Assembly: GCA_965197385.1 (NCBI GenBank)
Contig: CBDANA010000007.1
Coordinates: forward strand, 1,736-65,735
Source: Vicinamibacterales bacterium
GTDB lineage: Bacteria; Acidobacteriota; Vicinamibacteria; Vicinamibacterales; UBA823
Length of the DNA stretch: 64,000 nucleotides
Direction of reading: 5' to 3'
Under the pieces are notes generated by a model. That model did not search any database, was not told the DNA's origin, and saw only the letters and a list, made by a program, of their open reading frames with translations. The position numbers and the translations under genes were made by a program. Of the stretch, positions 3,074 to 11,564 are shown one piece after another; position 1 is the first letter of the stretch; every line of letters starts with the position of its first letter.

Positions 3074-3985
3074 ATGAGATCAGCGATCGGAGCACTCACA
3101 CTCGCGGCCGTCGGTCTATGTCTGTGGGGCATGCCGAGCCCCGCGATGGCGCAAGATGGGCTGAAGATTTACATCTCGGCCGACATGGAGGGCGTCACCG
3201 GTGCGGTGACCGGCGAACAGCTCGGCCCGGGCGGCTTCGAGTACCAGCGCTTCCGCCAATTCTTGACCGATGAGGTCAACGCGGCGATCGAGGGGGCACG
3301 CGAGGCAGGGGCACGCGAGATCCTGGTCTCGGACTCGCACGGCAACGGCCAGAACCTCCTGATCGACCAGCTACCGGAGGACGTCCAGGTCGTCCGCTCC
3401 TGGCCTCGGCCGCTCGGTATGATGCAAGGGATCGACGACACGTTCGACGGCGCCATCTTCATCGGGTATCACTCCAGCACGACCAACCCTGAGGGGATCC
3501 GCGCGCATACGACCTCGAGCGGCCGGCTGGCGGCCGTGCGCGTCAACGGCGTGGAGATGACCGAAGCCAGCTACAATGCCGCCATCGCGGGCCATTTCGA
3601 CGTGCCGGTCATCATGATCTCCGGCGACGACGCCGTCGTCAGCGAGGCGCAGTCCGTCCTTGGCGATGTCGAGGGGGCGGTCGTCAAGTGGGCGTACGGC
3701 TTCCACTCGGCCCGGACCCTCCACCCCGCGGCCGGGCAGGCGGTCATTCGCGAGACGGCGCGGGCGGCCGTCAGCCGGATCGGCGACTTCACGCCCTACA
3801 AGCCGGACGCGCCGATCCAGTTCGAGGTTACGTTCAAGAACTACCAGCCGTCGCAACTGCTCGCCTACCTGCCGCAGGTCGAACGGATCGACTCGCACAG
3901 CATTCGGTTCGTCGGCGACGACATGGTCGACGTATCGACGTTCTACACCTTCATGATGAACTACAGCGCTTCACTGGAGCCGTAG
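3074..3985 (+). CDS. dppA: M55 family D-aminopeptidase (DppA-like) with signal peptide
   Basis: KIYISADMEG, VSDSHG, FIGYH and ISGDD motifs. Confidence 0.92.
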   Translation: MRSAIGALTLAAVGLCLWGMPSPAMAQDGLKIYISADMEGVTGAVTGEQLGPGGFEYQRFRQFLTDEVNAAIEGAREAGAREILVSDSHGNGQNLLIDQLPEDVQVVRSWPRPLGMMQGIDDTFDGAIFIGYHSSTTNPEGIRAHTTSSGRLAAVRVNGVEMTEASYNAAIAGHFDVPVIMISGDDAVVSEAQSVLGDVEGAVVKWAYGFHSARTLHPAAGQAVIRETARAAVSRIGDFTPYKPDAPIQFEVTFKNYQPSQLLAYLPQVERIDSHSIRFVGDDMVDVSTFYTFMMNYSASLEP

Positions 3986-4002
3986 AGGATCAAGGAGTTA
4001 CA

Positions 4003-4190
4003 CCGGAACTTACTTGACTGGACGAGCCCGCGCTCGTAGCGCAGCCATTTTAGGGCTGCATCGTAGGCGGGCTCGGCAGGCCTGCCCTTCGGCAGGCTCA
4101 GGGCACCCCGAGCCCGTCGAGGGGTGAAGGCCTGCGCTACGTGGTAACTCACGTGAGTTCCGGGATTAGGAGTTGGGAGTTGGGAGTGAG
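4003..4190. repeat. Nested REP-like palindromes plus short GGGAGTT tandem repeats
   Basis: GTAGCGCAG...CTGCGCTAC pair 4036-4140; 40-bp palindrome 4085-4124; outer inverted repeat 4003-4013/4153-4163. Confidence 0.7.
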
Positions 4191-4272
4191 TACTACTTTG
4201 TCAGATCACTGAATACCCGGCGCGAGCGTCGCAGCCTCGTCGCGGGCGCCTGACGTGAGGCGGGAGCCGACG

Positions 4273-4476
4273 TCAGCGCTCGATTCGAATTTGGAGAATG
4301 TCGATTCGCTTGAGTGGAGCCTCACCGTCCAGCGGCATGGCAGCAATGGCATCCACCGCATTCATCCCATCCACGACTCGCCCGAAGACCGTGTAGCTGC
4401 CGTCGAGTGAGCGTGCCGCGGCCGTGCAAATGAAGAATGACGTCGACGCGCCATTCGGATCCTCGTCGCGGGCCAG
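4273..4476 (-). pseudogene. Cyclophilin-type PPIase C-terminal fragment
   Basis: ASTSFFIC...LDGSYTVFGRVVDGMNAVDAIA; 5' part missing. Confidence 0.8.
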
Positions 4477-4478
4477 AT

Positions 4479-4541
4479 CAGATCGAGGCCCCCATCGGGG
4501 CCGGGGGCATGGGGGAGGTCTACAAAGCGACCGACACCAGG
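4479..4541 (+). pseudogene. Ser/Thr kinase P-loop scrap
   Basis: Translates QIEAPIGAGGMGEVYKATDTR. Confidence 0.75.
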
Positions 4542-7277: not shown

Positions 7278-7802
7278 ATGCTCGAAGAACTCGCTTCGCA
7301 AGCCCAGGAATACATCTCACAACGTTACCTTGCGTGGGGTCTGGCCACAGTTGGACTGCTGATCGGTAGTGTCATAATTCGAGTCGTCAACAAGAGCTTC
7401 GCGAGGTTTTTTGCGAAGGTAGATTATGACCGAACATTAGAAATACTGTGCCAGCGCAGCGTCAAGATCTTCCTTTGGCTGGTACTGATCAGCTTTATTG
7501 CCGGGAACCTGGGATTTGACGTGTCCCCATTCATCGCCGGTCTGAGCGTGACCGGCTTTGTCGTGGGCTTTGCGGTCAAAGACGTGTTGTCTAACTTTGC
7601 CGCAGGCGTGTTCATCCTGATCAAACGGCCATTTTTGGTGGGTGACACGGTCAGTGTGGCTGGTGTGACAGGCGAGATCCTTGAGGTGAACCTGGCGGCC
7701 TGCATCATCTTTTCCACTGAGCATGAAACGGTAACCGTTCCCAACGCCAAGGTGTGGGGTAACCCAATCCGAAATGTCAGTAGAAATACGAAACAAGTGT
7801 GA
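7278..7802 (+). CDS. Small MscS-family mechanosensitive channel
   Basis: GFAVKDVLSNFAAG, RPFLVGD, VPN motifs. Confidence 0.85.
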   Translation: MLEELASQAQEYISQRYLAWGLATVGLLIGSVIIRVVNKSFARFFAKVDYDRTLEILCQRSVKIFLWLVLISFIAGNLGFDVSPFIAGLSVTGFVVGFAVKDVLSNFAAGVFILIKRPFLVGDTVSVAGVTGEILEVNLAACIIFSTEHETVTVPNAKVWGNPIRNVSRNTKQV

Positions 7803-8739
7803 AGTGGGTTTACTGGTGGAGTGCACGGCTGCTCGTTACACACGGCCCCCAAGGAGGACGTGGTGACCTGCCTGCCGTTTTTCGGACCAGCTGACGCTTG
7901 AGAGAATGGCGTCCTCCGGGCAAGGAGGAGCCATGAAGAAGACTCGGTTCACGGACGAGCAAATGGTCACGATCCTGCGGGAGGCCGACCGGCGGCCGGT
8001 GCCGGAGGTCGCCAAGCGGCACGGCGTCAGCGCCCAGACGATCTACAGCTGGCGCAAACACTTCGGGACGCTGGAACCGGCCGACGTGAAGCGCCTCCGC
8101 CAGCTCGAGCAGGAGAACGGTCGGCTGAAGAAGATGGTGGCCGATCGGGATCTCGAGATCGACGTGCTCCAGGAGATCACGCGAAAAAATGGTAGGCGCA
8201 CGTGCGCGCCGGCAGCAGGTCGCGTCTGCGTGCCGACGTGGGCTGTCGAGCCGCCGCGCGTGCGCCGTATTATCCGTCGCGCGGTCGACGCTCGGTTACC
8301 AGTCGCGGCTCCAGCAGCGCGATGCGCCGGCCCTGGCGGTCATGCGCGAGCTCGCGGGGCAGTATCCGCGGTACGGCTACCGGAAGATCCGGATCTTTCT
8401 CGCGCGCCGGGGACACCAGATGAGTGCCGAACGGACCTATCGGCTGTGGCGCCAGGCGGGCCTGCAAGTGCCGCGTCGGCGCCCGCGTCGGCGGATGGCC
8501 ACGCGTCGCCTCCGGCCGCAGCCCCCGACCGCGAGGAATCACGTGTGGGCCTATGACTTCGTCTTCGACACGTGCGCGGATGGCCGGGCGCTGAAGTGCT
8601 TGACGATCGTCGATGAGTTCACGCGGGAGTACCTGGCGATCGATGTGGCGGGAAGCATCCGATCCGGGCGGGTGATCGACGTGCTCGGACAGCTGGTGAG
8701 CCTCCACGGCGCCCCGCGCTATCTGCGGTCCGCGTGCTA

Positions 8740-8958
8740 TGACCAAGTTGTCAAGGCTCTCGGCGCCGTTGGGCTGTCCAATCGAGGGACAGATACGGGC
8801 ACGGGCTCGCTGGAGCCGGCCCATCGTGCGTCATCCGGACTCATACCCGAGGAGCGGAGGGTGCCTGGCGGACGGGCGTCGAGCTGTCTTCGACTCGAAG
8901 GGCTCAGGACAACGGTCGGCATGGCCTCCTCTCCGGCCGGAGCCGGAGCCTCAGGTCT
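8740..8958 (-). ncRNA. Putative bridge/seek RNA of the IS110 element
   Basis: Two internal loops with segments matching the target (8908-8915, 8869-8873) and donor junction (8825-8829, 8783-8787); RNA ends are approximate. Confidence 0.7.
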
Positions 8959-10215
8959 CTAGGCGGCGATCGGATCATCCCTCCACACGTGGTTGACGTC
9001 GAACGCCGTTTGGTTGTGGACGACGGCGAACGCGTAGTGCAGCAGCTTGGTCATGCAGGCCCCGATCGCTTGCATGGGGGGCAGGGGCCGCGTGACGCGC
9101 TGCGTGAGGCGCTCGTAGTGGGCTCTCAGGCGCCGGGTATGGCGTATGGACGACAGCGTGGCCATGTAGACCACGGCGCGCAGCTGCGCCCGGCCGCGCT
9201 TGCTGATCGGTGTGCGGCCCGCGTGCTGGCCGCTTTCCCGTCTCGACGGCTGCAGGCCGGCGAGCTTCACTAACTGCCGGCCGTGCCGGAATCGGTGAAA
9301 GGGGCCGATCTCGGCGAGTAGCCCGGCGATCGTGACCCACCCGATCCCCGGCAACGGCGCGAGATACGTCGGCTCCTCAAACCCCTCGAGGTCGGTCTGG
9401 AGCTCGCCCGCGACGCGATCGAGTTGGTCGCCGACGAAGTCGAGACGCTCGACCAGCCGAGTCACTTCACGCATGGCGGCCTCATGCCCATGGAGCGCCG
9501 CCACCGTCCTCCCGGCCTTCTCCCAGACTTGCTCAATCTTGAAGCGCCACATCCGCCGTCCCCGCCGGTGCTCTTGCACGACTCGGATGAAGGCCGGCTT
9601 CGTCAGCATCGCGATGTCCTGCGGGGGCAAGCCCGCCCGCAGCACCGCGAGGCACCCAGGCGCCGTGACGGTTTTCCACTCGCCGACGATTTCCGGAAAC
9701 ACGCCGTAGAGCTGATGCACGAGCAGGGTCTTGAGGCGGGCGCGCTCGCAGCGTAGACGCTGATACTCGCCCCAGGCTCGCCGCAGTTGCATGTATCGAG
9801 CGGGCAAGAGCTGGCACTTGGTCACGACCCCCGTGCGCAGCAGCTGCGCGATCTGCTCTGCGTCGGTCAGGTCTCGCTTGTCGCGTCCCATCTGCCGAGC
9901 CTCGCGCACCCGGAAGGTCGCGAGCGGATTGACGACGTGATACCGAAGCGCGCGCTGCTCAAAGAATGCACCAACCGCCTCCCACACGTGTCCGGTGGCC
10001 TCGAACGCGAAGTGCACCGTACCTCGTCCCCGGCCGACTCGACGGGCCGAGCAGCGCTCCACGAGCTCGCGCAGCCCCTCTCGAGAATGCGAAACCTTGA
10101 AGCTCGTGAGGCGGTGTCCCTGCCCATCGAGGACGACCACCTGGTGCTGACGGGTCGCCAGATCGATGCCCACGAAGATGTCGTCCAACGTGTGGTGCCT
10201 CTCATCCTGTCTCAT
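8959..10215 (-). CDS. IS110 DEDD recombinase/transposase
   Basis: FVGIDLA, FEATG, KRDLTDA, PGIG, RESG motifs; GGAGG RBS. Confidence 0.95.
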   Translation of the reverse strand: MRQDERHHTLDDIFVGIDLATRQHQVVVLDGQGHRLTSFKVSHSREGLRELVERCSARRVGRGRGTVHFAFEATGHVWEAVGAFFEQRALRYHVVNPLATFRVREARQMGRDKRDLTDAEQIAQLLRTGVVTKCQLLPARYMQLRRAWGEYQRLRCERARLKTLLVHQLYGVFPEIVGEWKTVTAPGCLAVLRAGLPPQDIAMLTKPAFIRVVQEHRRGRRMWRFKIEQVWEKAGRTVAALHGHEAAMREVTRLVERLDFVGDQLDRVAGELQTDLEGFEEPTYLAPLPGIGWVTIAGLLAEIGPFHRFRHGRQLVKLAGLQPSRRESGQHAGRTPISKRGRAQLRAVVYMATLSSIRHTRRLRAHYERLTQRVTRPLPPMQAIGACMTKLLHYAFAVVHNQTAFDVNHVWRDDPIAA

Positions 10216-10630
10216 GCTGGCCTCCCTGCTTTGTCGTGATTGCACGGAGACTATGCAGAGATGGGGTGAGGGCGCCCTTCCTGTCATCTCCATATCCTCG
10301 ATAACGGCCCGGAGTTCATCGCGACCGCTTTGCTCCGTTGGCTGCAGACTGCGAAGATCGACACGGCGTTCATCGATCCGGGCAAGCCCTGGCAGAATGG
10401 CACGGACGAATCGTTCAACGGGAAGTTCCGGAACGAATGCCTGTCCCTCGAGTGGTTTCGGAACCGGATGGAGGCCAAGATCGGGATCGAACGCTGGCGG
10501 CGGCACTACAACGAAGAGCGCCCCCTCATGAGTCTCGGCGACCTCACCCCCGCCGAGTTCAAGGCGCAGATAGAGACGACTCACAGGTGGTTAGGAGAGA
10601 GCCCAACGAGCGTCATTCTCCAGTAATCAC

Positions 10631-11564
10631 CCAGTATGCGCGGAGTCTGGAACCGCTCGGCGCCGACGTCACCACGCGGGGCACGAGCAAGAGTGCGGTC
10701 AGTCGACGCTTTGTCGCGCAAACCCAGGCGCAGCTGGATGCGTGGCGGGCGACGCCGCTCGACGCGCTGGACCTGGTGGGGCTGCTGATTGATGGCGTGC
10801 ACGTGGGTGGACACTGTATCGTTGTCGCCCTAGGCATCGATAAAATGGGCGCGAAACACCCGCTCGGCCTGTGGGAAGGGGCCACGGAGAACGCGACGGT
10901 CTGTCAGGGGCTCTTGACCAATCTCGGCAGCCGCGGGCTGCGCACCGACCGGAGCCTGCTGGTGATCGTCGATGGCGCGAAGGCCCTCGACACGGCCGTG
11001 ACCCAGACATTTGGGCGCGCCGCGCTGGTGCAGCGGTGTCAGGTCCATAAGGGCCGGAACATCTTGGAGCATCTCCCTGAGGCACAGCGGCCGGGGGTGA
11101 AGGCGGTCCTCACGCGCGCCTACACGAACAGCCCCGTCAAGACGGCCAAGCGTCTGCTGCAGGACCTGGCGCGGCGCTTGGACACTGACTACCCGAGTGC
11201 GGCCACGAGCGTGCGGGAAGGGCTCGACGAGACGCTGACCGTGCTCGGCTTGGGTCTGTCGGAGCGTCTCCAACGATCGCTCGCCACCACAAACGCCATC
11301 GAGAGTCTCCTCAGCCGAACGCGCCATGTGCAGCGCCATGTGAAACGCTGGCGCGGCGGGACGATGGTGCTGCGCTGGGTGGCCGCCGGGGTGCTCGAAG
11401 CGGCGAAGGGGTTCCGTCGGGTGCAAGGATGTCAAGATATGCCCGCGCTGGTCGCTGCCCTCCTGGCACGCGACGCGCGGTTAGGACTCGGGGAGTCGTC
11501 AGAGATGGTTGCGTAGTCGTGAACCAAGCTGCCGCTGAGTTTCAACAGCGCACGGGACATCCCC
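10631..11564 (+). mobile_element. IS256-family element, 5'-truncated copy
   Basis: Near-identical to the 3' part of 16996-18429; right IR GGGACATCCCC. Confidence 0.92.

What the first reader, a model, noticed from the sequence alone, without database searches (positions are those of the whole stretch)
8728..10307. IS110 element apparently programmed by a bridge-like RNA to insert into the catalytic codons of IS3 transposases
Seen: the element (8733-10298) sits in the IS3 orfB RYLRS|DNGP motif with a duplicated CG core and no long TIRs. Its ~225-nt 3' non-coding end, read on the minus strand, contains CCGUUGUC (8915-8908), a 7/8 match to the left target flank CCGTTATC. The single mismatch would be a G:T wobble at the third base of the Asp codon (GAC/GAT). 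GUCCG (8873-8869) is the reverse complement of the right flank CGGAC. The two segments enclose a hairpin (tcgag...ctcga) and are closed by a ugcc/ggca stem. Established: IS110/IS1111 recombinases use bridge (seek) RNAs with target- and donor-binding loops. Inference: this element recognises the conserved second-Asp motif of IS3 DDE transposases, making it an IS that parasitises and inactivates another IS family.
Basis: partly seen in the sequence, partly recalled or inferred. Interest (0 to 1): 0.9.

Follow-up and report, generated by a model that had tools for sequence, protein, structure and literature searches.

The report
RNA-guided IS110 element splitting DDE transposases
This is a jumping gene that uses its own small guide RNA to insert into the catalytic Asp-Asn-Gly codons of other jumping genes' transposases, a strategy already shown for one E. 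coli element, here found in a different and widespread environmental lineage.

Summary
Window 8733-10298 (minus strand) is an intact IS110-family element. It has a 418-aa DEDD transposase and a 226-nt 3' non-coding end, and it splits an IS3 orfB between ...RYLRS and DNGPEF.

The genome holds 17 full-length copies plus fragments. Of 25 GAYAAYGGNCCNGARTT sites, 22 carry the element.

Homologues at 45-89% transposase identity, from other phyla and from metagenomes, sit at the same codon of IS3- and IS481-type transposases.

The 3' end folds into a covariation-supported two-module RNA. CCGUUGUC (8915-8908) and GUCCG (8873-8869) lie on opposite sides of one internal loop.

The guide and the target change together. 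Three guide classes (CCGUUGUC, CCAGACUC, CCUUGGUC) go with three target classes (DNG codons, a palindromic repeat, DQG codons). The transposases of the first two classes are 85-90% identical. Every guide mismatch in the DNG class is a G:T or U:G wobble at a codon third base.

The idea is not new. Siddiquee et al. 2024 showed that ISEc21 (IS110 family, upstream RNA) targets the second-Asp codons of IS3 transposases. This element is a distinct variant: the RNA is 3'-encoded, the transposase is longer, the insertion register differs, and IS481 is also hit.

The parts
8733..10298 (-). IS110-family insertion sequence (1566 bp): LE at 10298, RE at 8733
   Evidence: There are 17 full-length copies at 99.7-100% identity in the same genome, with sharp boundaries at these bases.
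8962..10215 (-). Transposase gene, 418 aa (stop codon 8959-8961). DEDD residues are D18, E72, D115, D118; the S328-G329 motif is present.
   Evidence: Pfam PF01548 plus PF02371. NCBIfam NF033542 'IS110 family RNA-guided transposase', 201.9 bits against a cut-off of 140. The DEDD residues are invariant in 19 of 19 aligned homologues; position 328 is S in 14 and T in 5.
8733..8958 (-). 3' non-coding end that encodes the bridge/seek RNA
   Evidence: Consensus structure of 40 homologous ends: 44 pairs, 97% of cells paired against 37-57% when partners are slid, 16 pairs with compensatory changes, covariation score 0.304 against 0.162 in shuffles (0 of 500 reach it).
8856..8929 (-). Target-binding module: stems P3 (8929-8925 / 8860-8856), P4 (8921-8918 / 8865-8862) and P5 (8905-8903 / 8883-8881) around an internal loop
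   Evidence: P3 has 4 of 5 pairs with changes on both sides.
8908..8915 (-). Left target guide CCGUUGUC. It pairs with the sense strand of GAY-AAY-GG (Asp-Asn-Gly).
   Evidence: It lies on the 5' side of the internal loop. It is invariant in all DNG-targeting homologues. It is replaced by CCAGACUC or CCUUGGUC where the flank reads CCAGACTC or CCCTGGTC.
8869..8873 (-). Right target guide GUCCG, complementary to CG + GAC on the other side of the crossover
   Evidence: It lies on the 3' side of the same loop. In the retargeted class the same position reads GUGUCCG against the flank CGGACAC, with 5 pairs beyond the core in 6 of 9 sites and 3 pairs in 3 of 9. In the DNG class only 0-3 pairs form.
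8776..8840 (-). Donor-binding module: basal stem 8840-8835 / 8781-8776 and inner stem 8825-8819 / 8800-8792
   Evidence: The inner stem has 3 pairs with compensatory changes.
8825..8829 (-). Candidate left donor guide GCACG, identical to the last 5 nt of the RE. Tentative.
   Evidence: Its position mirrors the left target guide. The RE end ATAGCACG is invariant, so covariation cannot be tested. One large lineage has GCUCG here, a single mismatch.
8782..8787 (-). Right donor guide CCUCG(A), complementary to core CG plus the first three LE bases AGG; the trailing A is complementary to the last T of the left target
   Evidence: Its first base covaries with the third LE base: A with T 31, C with G 5, U with A 4, and one exception, over 41 distinct sites.
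8766..8771 (-). Second segment CAACGG, complementary to the left guide and so to the top strand of the left target, just 3' of the donor-module stem
   Evidence: A complement of 6 nt or more is present in 28 of 29 distinct RNA variants of the DNG class. It is changed to UCUGG in 3 of 7 variants of the retargeted class and to CCAAGG in the DQG variant L059.
8749..8754 (-). TTGACA, a -35 hexamer that would form a promoter only when RE is joined to LE
   Evidence: In 25 of 31 distinct RE/LE combinations, joining the ends gives TTGAC[A/G/T], 17 nt, then nAGnAT. For the window it gives TTGACA-17-GAGGAT. No sigma-70-like site exists in the integrated copy.
8731..8732 (.). RE-side CG dinucleotide (core). 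By comparison it is carried by the element.
   Evidence: The RE-side dinucleotide is constant within lineages: CG 49 and CC 7 over 56 sites.
10299..10300 (.). LE-side CG dinucleotide (core). By comparison it belongs to the target: the last base of the Ser codon plus the first base of the Asp codon.
   Evidence: The LE-side dinucleotide varies (CG 18, CC 10, CA 8, CT 5), as a codon third base would.
7933..8190 (+). orfA of the interrupted IS3-family host
   Evidence: Pfam HTH_Tnp_1, E 2.6e-17.
8189..8730 (+). orfB, N-terminal part, ending ...RYLRS
   Evidence: Pfam HTH_21 plus rve positions 2-68 of 102.
10300..10626 (+). orfB, C-terminal part, starting DNGPEF
   Evidence: Pfam rve_3, E 2.9e-24.

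Best explanation
Window 8733-10298 is one active-looking copy of a multicopy IS110-family (DEDD, 'bridge recombinase') insertion sequence lying on the minus strand.

Inferred steps. The element excises as a circle. Joining RE to LE creates a promoter (TTGACA, 17 nt, GAGGAT) that transcribes the transposase gene and, behind it, a structured RNA of about 220 nt.

What the sequence and comparisons show. The first module of this RNA holds, on the two sides of one internal loop, CCGUUGUC and GUCCG. CCGUUGUC pairs with the sense strand of the codons GAY-AAY-GG (Asp-Asn-Gly, where Asp is the second catalytic residue of rve-type DDE transposases). Its two inner G residues face codon third positions, so C and T are both accepted through G:T wobble. 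GUCCG pairs with the CG core and up to three bases on the other side. The second module holds CCUCG(A), complementary to the core plus the first bases of the left end. It also holds a candidate GCACG that matches the right end.

Inferred by analogy with IS621 and ISEc21. The recombinase-RNA complex brings the circle junction and the target together and exchanges strands at the CG dinucleotide. The element lands between the preceding codon and the Asp codon, always antisense to the transposase gene, and splits it.

Consequences. Recognition is essentially one-armed (left arm plus core). The element can therefore enter any IS3- or IS481-type gene that carries these codons, and occasionally other genes. 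Insertions inside other insertion sequences persist because they cost the host nothing. In this genome the element now occupies 22 of 25 DNGPEF-coding sites.
For: 1. Family. Pfam PF01548 plus PF02371. NF033542 scores 201.9 bits against a cut-off of 140. The DEDD residues and the S/T-G motif are conserved in 19 of 19 homologues.

2. Copy number and sites in this genome. There are 17 full-length copies at 99.7% identity or more. Of 25 GAYAAYGGNCCNGARTT sites, 22 are occupied. Of 24 LE junctions, 22 abut such a site, and the flanks fall into at least four IS3 types.

3. Independent events elsewhere. Homologues from MAGs labelled Vicinamibacterales, Eisenbacteria, Methylomirabilota, Actinomycetota and Thermoleophilia are flanked by orfB pieces that start at residue 1 or end at residue 181 of the window's pieces. 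The same holds in metagenome contigs. Of 55 distinct LE-side flank peptides, 43 begin D-N-G. Of 20 longer flanks, 19 are IS3-type (11) or IS481-type (8), with the Asp at profile position 282 or 195.

4. RNA structure. 44 pairs, 97% paired against 37-57% for slid partners, 16 pairs with compensatory changes, and 0 of 500 shuffles reach the covariation score.

5. Guide-target covariation.
- CCGUUGUC goes with CCGTTGTC at 21 sites, plus 14 sites that differ only by wobble-compatible changes.
- CCAGACUC goes with CCAGACTC at 4 of 4 sites.
- CCUUGGUC goes with CCCTGGTC (DQG codons) at 1 site, with 1 poor match (L112).
- Total mismatches are 18 against a shuffled mean of 46.7; 0 of 10000 shuffles are as low.

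6. The switch maps to the RNA. Transposases of the DNG-targeting class and the retargeted class are 85-90% identical. In the stretch that holds the two RNA modules, their non-coding ends differ almost only in the two target guides and the second segment.

7. Donor guide. Its first base covaries with the third base of the LE in 40 of 41 sites, across three states.

8. Junction promoter in 25 of 31 RE/LE combinations.

9. Published mechanism.
- IS621 cuts top strands after the core (PMC11208158, passages read).
- A seekRNA is needed for ISEc21, which targets the second D codons of IS3 members (PMC11187229, section 12).
- One-armed 'half-match' recombination and single-strand transfer have been reported for IS621 (preprint 10.64898/2026.08.31.748434, abstract and passages). 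That fits the weak right arm and the asymmetric junction dinucleotides seen here.

10. RNA libraries. Contigs from RNA libraries of two studies cover 8729-9217. The strand is unknown and DNA carry-over is possible.
Against: - No experiment shows that the RNA exists with defined ends, binds the transposase or is needed. The RNA-library contigs cannot give strand or ends, and some run on into IS3 flanks.
- Rfam has no match to this end. The single-sequence fold is only marginally better than shuffles (z -1.96).
- The right target guide fits poorly in the DNG class: 0 pairs beyond the core in 19 of 43 sites.
- The left donor guide cannot be tested by covariation and carries a mismatch in one large lineage.
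- Recognition is not sufficient for occupancy. 209 CCGTTGTC octamers in this genome are unoccupied. Two of them have the full CCGTTGTCGGAC, and four lie in IS3-like DNG(P/K)EF genes.
- Some copies in this genome may have multiplied as IS3::IS110 composites or by recombination. Flank types are chimeric in at least two copies, so the 22 occupied sites are not 22 independent events.
- One guide/flank pair (L112) fits badly: 3 mismatches in 8.
Confidence: 0.88

Rival explanations
1. Safe-harbour survivorship rather than dedicated anti-IS targeting. The guide specifies only about 8 + 3 bases. Insertions happen wherever these occur, and mostly those inside dispensable, multicopy transposase genes survive selection. 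The apparent aim at IS3 would then be partly a filter applied after insertion. This modifies the main explanation and is not exclusive of it.
For: - Off-target insertions share only the short motif. Examples are the DNGPG box of a histidine kinase (L023), the non-transposase flanks of L021, L061, L062 and L090, and G000 C9:341332.
- The right arm is barely specified.
- Many perfect octamers in host genes are unoccupied.
Against: - The octamer CCGUUGUC is kept unchanged in lineages down to 45% transposase identity, while neighbouring loop bases vary.
- Its G residues sit exactly opposite codon third positions.
- A relative has moved to the alternative IS3 motif DQG (L059).
These three points indicate selection for the transposase motif itself.
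Confidence: 0.3
2. The many IS3::IS110 composites arose from one or a few insertions. They were then copied by IS3 transposition in trans, by duplication, or by homologous recombination. The recurrence would then say little about target choice.
For: - Several copies share identical flanks over hundreds of bases: type N1/C1 five times, N2/C2 three times.
- Chimeric flank pairs (N2/C1, and N1-like with C2) show recombination between copies.
Against: - At least four different IS3 types are occupied at the same codon in this genome.
- The same codon is occupied in IS3- and IS481-type genes of other phyla, by homologues of 45-89% identity.
- All susceptible IS3 copies have a broken transposase.
Confidence: 0.05
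3. The transposase protein itself reads the target DNA, and the matching strings in the non-coding end are coincidental or are relics of captured target sequence.
For: None specific. No binding data exist for this family.
Against: - Transposases that are 85-90% identical use unrelated targets. The corresponding changes are 4 bases in the left guide, 2 in the right guide and 1-3 in the second segment of an otherwise near-identical RNA-module stretch.
- The strings sit in loops of a covariation-supported fold.
- RNA guidance is established for IS621 and ISEc21.
Confidence: 0.03

Closest known systems
ISEc21 (IS110 family; Siddiquee et al. 2024, Nat Commun, PMC11187229; section 12 read, plus the legend of Extended Data Fig. 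11 in the preprint)
   Same: It is an IS110-family DEDD element. Its RNA carries a bottom-strand match 5' of a top-strand match. [quoted passage not shown] It inserts in one orientation without a target duplication. Natural reprogramming has been seen in a relative (ISMch6).
   Different: - ISEc21 encodes its RNA upstream of the transposase gene; here the RNA is downstream.
- Its transposase is 358 aa; here it is 418 aa.
[quoted passage not shown] Here the crossover is at the last base of the preceding codon and the first base of the Asp codon.
- ISEc21 is known from Enterobacteriaceae. This clade comes from MAGs of soil and sediment phyla and from a sponge-associated sample.
- Here IS481-type genes are hit as well.
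I could not obtain the ISEc21 sequence. Relatedness versus convergence is therefore untested, and the paper's supplementary figures were closed.
IS621 bridge RNA system (Durrant et al. 2024, PMC11208160; Hiraizumi et al. 2024, PMC11208158; passages read)
   Same: The RNA has two modules, each with left and right guides on the two sides of an internal loop. There is a 2-nt core. Short ATA/TAT-like subterminal repeats flank a short programmable donor. Top-strand logic fits the junction dinucleotides. A base 3' of the right donor guide is complementary to the end of the left target, as in a handshake guide.
   Different: - The RNA is at the 3' end instead of the 5' end.
- The core is CG rather than CT.
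- The target is a coding motif rather than REP.
- An extra 6-7-nt segment lies outside the donor-module stem and is complementary to the left target. IS621 has a 2-nt handshake guide.
IS1111 group (for example ISEc11, ISKpn4, IS4321/IS5075)
   Same: The long non-coding region lies downstream of the transposase gene. The C-terminal motif is GL-P----S/T-G. Some members target other mobile elements: Tn21-family inverted repeats and attC sites.
   Different: - There is no 7-17-bp subterminal inverted repeat.
- The transposase is 418 aa, not 330-350 aa.
- The order of strand matches is the IS110 order, not the IS1111 order (PMC11187229, sections 9 and 12).

Membership tests
IS110 family (DEDD / bridge recombinase insertion sequences) | Transposase with an N-terminal DEDD RuvC-like domain and a C-terminal Transposase_20 domain | tested here: met
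   PF01548 E 1.3e-28 and PF02371 E 8.3e-25. NF033542 scores 201.9 bits against a cut-off of 140.
IS110 family (DEDD / bridge recombinase insertion sequences) | Catalytic D-E-D-D residues and the S/T-G motif in G--P----SG | tested here: met
   D18, E72, D115 and D118 are invariant in 19 of 19 homologues. Position 328 is S in 14 and T in 5. G329 is invariant.
IS110 family (DEDD / bridge recombinase insertion sequences) | Site- and orientation-specific insertion, no terminal inverted repeats, no true target duplication | tested here: met
   The same codon and the same orientation are seen in all transposase hosts. No terminal inverted repeat was found. The junction dinucleotides differ between the two sides in many copies.
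IS110 family (DEDD / bridge recombinase insertion sequences) | Structured non-coding RNA with loops complementary to target and donor | tested here: met
   The fold is supported by covariation. The left target guide covaries with the target. The right donor guide covaries with the LE.
IS110 family (DEDD / bridge recombinase insertion sequences) | The RNA binds the recombinase and is required for transposition; a circular intermediate forms | not testable with these tools
   The evidence is indirect only: a promoter that would form at the circle junction, and RNA-library contigs over the end.
IS110 subgroup (as against IS1111) | Long non-coding region upstream of the transposase gene | tested here: not met
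   The 5' end is 83 nt (10216-10298) and the 3' end is 226 nt. PMC11187229 section 6 notes IS110-type exceptions with a downstream region.
IS110 subgroup (as against IS1111) | Bottom-strand match lies 5' of the top-strand match in the RNA; subterminal repeats are only short | tested here: met
   CCGUUGUC (which pairs with the bottom strand) lies 5' of GUCCG (which pairs with the top strand). ATA precedes GCACG at the RE, and TAT follows AG(G)A at the LE.
IS1111 subgroup | Subterminal inverted repeats of 7-17 bp | tested here: not met
   None of the 25 longest inverted pairs listed joins the two ends.
IS1111 subgroup | Transposase of about 330-350 aa; top-strand match 5' of bottom-strand match | tested here: not met
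   The transposase is 418 aa and the order of matches is reversed. The criteria come from PMC11187229, sections 6 and 9.
ISEc21-like elements (IS110 elements aimed at the second D codon of IS3 transposases) | Natural target is the codons at the second catalytic Asp of rve-type transposases | tested here: met
   This is a likeness of function. Sequence relatedness to ISEc21 was not tested because its sequence could not be fetched.

The most novel reading that the evidence does not exclude
A deep, widespread environmental clade of IS110-type elements, distinct from ISEc21, has independently evolved a 'codon-aware' guide. Its G residues face synonymous third positions, so it reads Asp-Asn-Gly in any IS3- or IS481-type transposase. 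This lets it act as a hyperparasite that can extinguish whole DDE insertion-sequence families in a genome.

Its 3'-encoded RNA also carries an extra segment. Together with the right donor guide, that segment spells the complement of the recombinant left junction (left target, core, left end), split by the donor-module stem. It may be a long handshake guide that captures the exchanged strand, an architecture not described for IS621.
Probability: 0.35. Interest if true: 0.65.

Novelty: new variant of a known kind. Interest (0 to 1): 0.45.

Why it matters
Targeting of the catalytic codons of DDE transposases by RNA-guided IS110 elements is not a curiosity of one enterobacterial element. It recurs across phyla in a lineage with a different RNA layout, and it can disable nearly every susceptible IS copy in a genome.

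For mobile-element ecology, this is a clear case of one insertion-sequence family living on, and silencing, two others (IS3 and IS481).

For bridge-recombinase engineering it offers three things:
- Natural retargeting among near-identical elements: transposases of 85-90% identity aimed at Asp-Asn-Gly codons or at a palindromic repeat, plus a more distant relative (about 62% identity) aimed at Asp-Gln-Gly codons.
- A guide that tolerates synonymous variation through wobble.
- A possible extended handshake segment that could be tested for its effect on strand exchange.

Tried and rejected
- Rfam scan of 7800-10700 at a permissive threshold. It gave only chance-level hits and no bridge-RNA family.
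- Single-sequence fold of the 3' end. The z-score was -1.96 and the MFE differs from the consensus fold, so it is not decisive on its own.
- Promoter and terminator scan of the integrated copy. It found none.
- tblastn of the transposase against plasmids. The best hit was 32% identical, so no named close relative was found.
- Attempts to fetch ISEc21 for a direct comparison. The accessions from two papers (MH919378, MF072964) are not in the plasmid collection. In MG764551 the IS110-family search found three identical 343-aa frames and one fragment, none of them the 358-aa ISEc21 transposase. I dropped this step, so relatedness to ISEc21 is untested.
- Identity of the retargeted class's target. 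There was no Rfam match in four loci. There was no Pfam match to the adjacent ORF of L077. A 16-nt pattern gave no exact empty site in two MAGs. The flank alignment shows only a conserved palindromic stretch of about 130 nt.
- RNA evidence. Contigs from RNA libraries cover parts of the element, but they cannot give strand, ends or level, and DNA carry-over is possible. The stretches without cover (roughly 9220-9590 in all four runs) say nothing.
- Considered and rejected: a true 2-bp target duplication (the junction dinucleotides differ between sides), and membership of the IS1111 subgroup (no long subterminal repeats).
- The supplementary figures of PMC11187229 (Supplementary Figs 11 and 12) were closed. 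They may show the exact ISEc21 target and guides, which bear on the register comparison.

Full report
**What is there.** Window 8733-10298 holds a 1566-bp element on the minus strand. It has one ORF (10215-8962, 418 aa) that matches DEDD_Tnp_IS110 and Transposase_20. It also matches NCBIfam 'IS110 family RNA-guided transposase' at 201.9 bits against a cut-off of 140. In an alignment of 19 homologues the catalytic D18, E72, D115 and D118 are invariant, and the S/T-G motif is kept. The 5' untranslated end is 83 nt and the 3' non-coding end is 226 nt (8733-8958). No terminal inverted repeat joins the ends.

The element splits an IS3-family orfB. The upstream piece matches HTH_21 plus rve positions 2-68 of 102 and ends ...RYLRS. 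The downstream piece starts DNGPEF and matches rve_3. CG stands on both sides, at 8731-8732 and 10299-10300.

**Recurrence in the same genome.** The assembly has 3.99 Mb in 9 contigs. It holds 17 full-length copies at 99.7-100% identity, three copies truncated near the right end, and several fragments. A search for GAYAAYGGNCCNGARTT found 25 sites. At 22 of them the element's left end lies directly beside the site. The three empty sites belong to one further IS3 type whose preceding codon is ACC.

Of 24 left-end junctions, 22 abut such a site. The flanks fall into at least four IS3 types. Some copies have the N-terminal flank of one type and the C-terminal flank of another, so copies have recombined with each other. 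The occupied sites are therefore not all independent events.

Recognition is also not sufficient for occupancy. 209 CCGTTGTC octamers are unoccupied; 21 of these are the guide-coding DNA of the element copies themselves. Two unoccupied sites have the full CCGTTGTCGGAC, and four lie in IS3-like DNG(P/K)EF genes.

**Recurrence elsewhere.** A scan of one genome per species returned 26 loci. A metagenome scan returned 80 more. With the window's two orfB pieces as queries, homologues of the element are flanked by an orfB C-terminal piece that starts exactly at residue 1, or by an N-terminal piece that ends at residue 181. The homologues come from MAGs labelled Vicinamibacterales (88-99%), Eisenbacteria (55%), Methylomirabilota (55%) and Thermoleophilia (48%). 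Many metagenome contigs show the same.

Among 55 distinct left-end flank peptides:
- 43 begin D-N-G;
- one each begins DQG, DSG and DDG;
- nine belong to a retargeted class.

I scanned 20 flanks, those of about 68 aa or more, against NCBIfam. Nineteen are transposases, best matched by the IS3 model (11) or the IS481 model (8). In each, flank residue 1 sits at position 282 of 369 of the IS3 profile or position 195 of 284 of the IS481 profile. The twentieth (L023) is a sensor histidine kinase, hit in its DNGPG box. The target is therefore the Asp-Asn-Gly codons of rve-type DDE transposases in general, with occasional look-alike sites in host genes.

**The RNA.** Forty distinct 3' ends align well. 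They share a consensus structure of 44 pairs:
- 97% of cells are paired, against 37-57% when the 3' partners are slid by 1-3 columns;
- 16 pairs have changes on both sides;
- the covariation score is 0.304 against 0.162 in shuffles, and 0 of 500 shuffles reach it.

The fold has two modules. Its 5' side holds CCGUUGUC (8915-8908) and its 3' side holds GUCCG (8873-8869). In the second module, a basal stem (8840-8835 with 8781-8776) and an inner stem enclose a loop. GCACG lies at its 5' end, running into the inner stem, and CCUCGA lies on its 3' side. This is the layout of the IS621 bridge RNA (PMC11208160, passages), but encoded behind the transposase gene.

**Guide-target covariation.** I took distinct sites where both the guide and the flank could be read (40 sites).
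- Guide CCGUUGUC lies next to CCGTTGTC at 21 sites, CCATTGTC at 9, CCGTTATC at 2 and CCATTATC at 1. In each variant a guide G faces a T, which is a G:T wobble. It also lies next to CCGTCGTC at 1 site, where a guide U faces a G.
- Guide CCAGACUC lies next to CCAGACTC at 4 of 4 sites.
- Guide CCUUGGUC lies next to CCCTGGTC in L059. That flank encodes DQGSQF, the alternative IS3 motif, and the single difference is again a wobble. In L112 the same guide lies next to CCATTATC, a poor fit.
- Total mismatches are 18, against a shuffled mean of 46.7 and a minimum of 25. None of 10000 shuffles is as low.

The wobble positions are the third bases of the Asn and Asp codons.

The transposases of the DNG-targeting class and the CCAGACUC class are 85-90% identical. 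In the stretch that holds the two RNA modules, their non-coding ends differ almost only at four bases of the left guide, two of the right guide and one to three of a further segment. That places the specificity in the RNA rather than in the protein.

The right guide works well in the retargeted class, where GUGUCCG faces CGGACAC: five pairs beyond the core in 6 of 9 sites. In the DNG class it forms only 0-3 pairs. This is as expected if the codon before the Asp is free to vary. It also matches the one-armed 'half-match' recombination reported for IS621 (preprint 10.64898/2026.08.31.748434, abstract and passages).

**Donor side and promoter.** The right end ATAGCACG is invariant. The left end begins AGG, AGT or AGA. 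The base before CUCG in the donor loop is C, A or U accordingly: 40 of 41 sites, with one exception in L048. GCACG in the loop equals the last five bases of the right end. This cannot be tested by covariation, and one large lineage has GCUCG.

Joining the right end to the left end in silico gives TTGAC[A/G/T], 17 nt, then nAGnAT in 25 of 31 distinct combinations. For the window it gives TTGACA-17-GAGGAT. The integrated copy has no sigma-70-like site. This fits the promoter at the circle junction described for the family (PMC11187229, section 4). It implies that the RNA is co-transcribed behind the transposase gene.

**Junction dinucleotides.** The dinucleotide on the right-end side is constant within lineages (CG 49, CC 7). 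The one on the left-end side varies (CG 18, CC 10, CA 8, CT 5). Its second base is the complement of the third base of the codon before the Asp. Where that codon is AGY, the base is a purine in all such sites seen (7, counted by eye from the table), which keeps Ser.

I infer that the left junction keeps the target's core and the right junction keeps the element's core. This is what top-strand cleavage after the core predicts (PMC11208158, passages). It is also what single-strand transfer predicts. The 'duplicated CG' of this copy is thus a coincidence of two like cores, not a target duplication.

**An extra segment.** Just 3' of the donor-module stem lies CAACGG (8771-8766), the complement of the first six bases of the left guide. 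A complement of 6 nt or more is present in 28 of 29 distinct RNA variants of the DNG class. It becomes UCUGG in 3 of 7 variants of the retargeted class; the other four have a hybrid, UACGG. It becomes CCAAGG in L059.

Read together with CCUCGA, it spells the complement of left target, core and left end, interrupted by the stem strand. It may pair with the left guide within the RNA. Alternatively it may act as a long handshake guide for the exchanged top strand; IS621 has a 2-nt handshake guide at the matching place. The data do not decide between these.

**Expression.** Contigs from RNA libraries of two studies cover 8729-9217 with 0-1 differences in three records. Contigs give no strand or ends, some run on into other IS3 flanks, and DNA carry-over is possible. 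This is only weak support.

**Comparison with what is known.** Siddiquee et al. [quoted passage not shown] ISEc21 is an IS110-family element with an upstream non-coding region and a 358-aa transposase. They show that its seekRNA is required and programmable (PMC11187229, section 12). The preprint legend places the ISEc21 insertion after the D codon.

The present element differs in five ways:
- the RNA is 3'-encoded;
- the transposase is 418 aa;
- the crossover lies at the boundary before the Asp codon;
- IS481-type genes are also used;
- the hosts come from other phyla.

By the paper's criteria the element has the IS110 order of strand matches and lacks long subterminal repeats, but it has its non-coding region downstream. 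The paper notes this as an exception within IS110 (section 6). Full-text searches for other reports of bridge-RNA or IS110 elements aimed at IS3 or IS481 transposases found none besides this paper. The library holds open-access papers and preprints only. I could not fetch the ISEc21 sequence, so common descent versus convergence is open.

**Verdict.** The finding is a new variant of a known kind. It is interesting mainly for the breadth of the clade, the wobble-tolerant guide, the near-complete occupation of susceptible sites in this genome, and the extra guide-like segment.

Noticed in passing
L056-L058, L060, L071, L074, L077-L079, L094, L099, L107, L109, L111, L113, L115, L117, L118, L124: A sub-lineage has guides CCAGACUC and GUGUCCG; its transposases are 85-90% identical to those of DNG-targeting relatives. 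It inserts in TGCCAGACT-CG-GACAC, which lies inside a conserved, partly palindromic non-coding stretch of about 130 nt. Beyond that stretch the flanks diverge completely. No Rfam or Pfam match was found, so the identity of this repeat is unknown.
   Followed up: partly
L059 (metagenome contig): This relative has the guide CCUUGGUC and sits in GACCAGGGG..., which encodes DQGSQF, the alternative second-Asp motif of IS3 transposases. It is a natural retargeting from DNG to DQG.
   Followed up: partly
L023 (MAG labelled Vicinamibacterales): A copy of the 88%-identical relative interrupts a sensor histidine kinase at its DNGPG (ATP-binding G1) box. This is an off-target site that shares the same codons.
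   Followed up: yes
L024, about 3290-4490: Reciprocal nesting. An intact IS3-type element (orfB ...ILRT DNGKEF..., with its own DNG site unoccupied) has inserted into a copy of the IS110 relative, which itself sits in another IS3.
   Followed up: partly
window 10638-11513 (+): Directly after the IS3 orfB lies a 5'-truncated Mutator/IS256-type transposase frame (PF00872 positions 122-373 of 379). The IS3 may itself have landed in another insertion sequence.
   Followed up: no
G000 C7:86755-88303, C6:573127-574675, C8:409394-410939; also the flank of C8:609872: Three copies of the element lack their first 17-19 bases at the right end, where another sequence abuts. In two of them that sequence ends ...CATATAGGGGC, and the same string lies 31 nt from the junction of a fourth copy. 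A further mobile element seems to target or truncate this end.
   Followed up: no
G000 copies C8:629342 and C8:386685: The flanks are chimeric: the N-terminal flank comes from one IS3 type and the C-terminal flank from another. This indicates recombination between element copies and so possible genome rearrangements.
   Followed up: partly
G000 left flanks of the N1-type IS3 (for example C9:757664 against C9:76591): Within one IS3 type, the three bases 7-9 nt from the junction differ as a block (CAC AGT CGC against CAC CTG CGC, Ser against Leu). This is unexplained. It could be allelic, or a footprint of repeated recombination.
   Followed up: no
window 8730 joined to 10299 (run X18, record 9): One contig from an RNA library joins 8730 to 10299, which is an uninterrupted site with a single CG. 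Only 20 matching bases lie on the shorter side (27 on the other) and the depth is 2.9. It probably comes from a related intact IS3 in that sample.
   Followed up: no
L061 and L116: Two elements carry an insertion of about 170 nt between the RNA modules and the TTGACA near the right end, so the tail region tolerates extra sequence.
   Followed up: no
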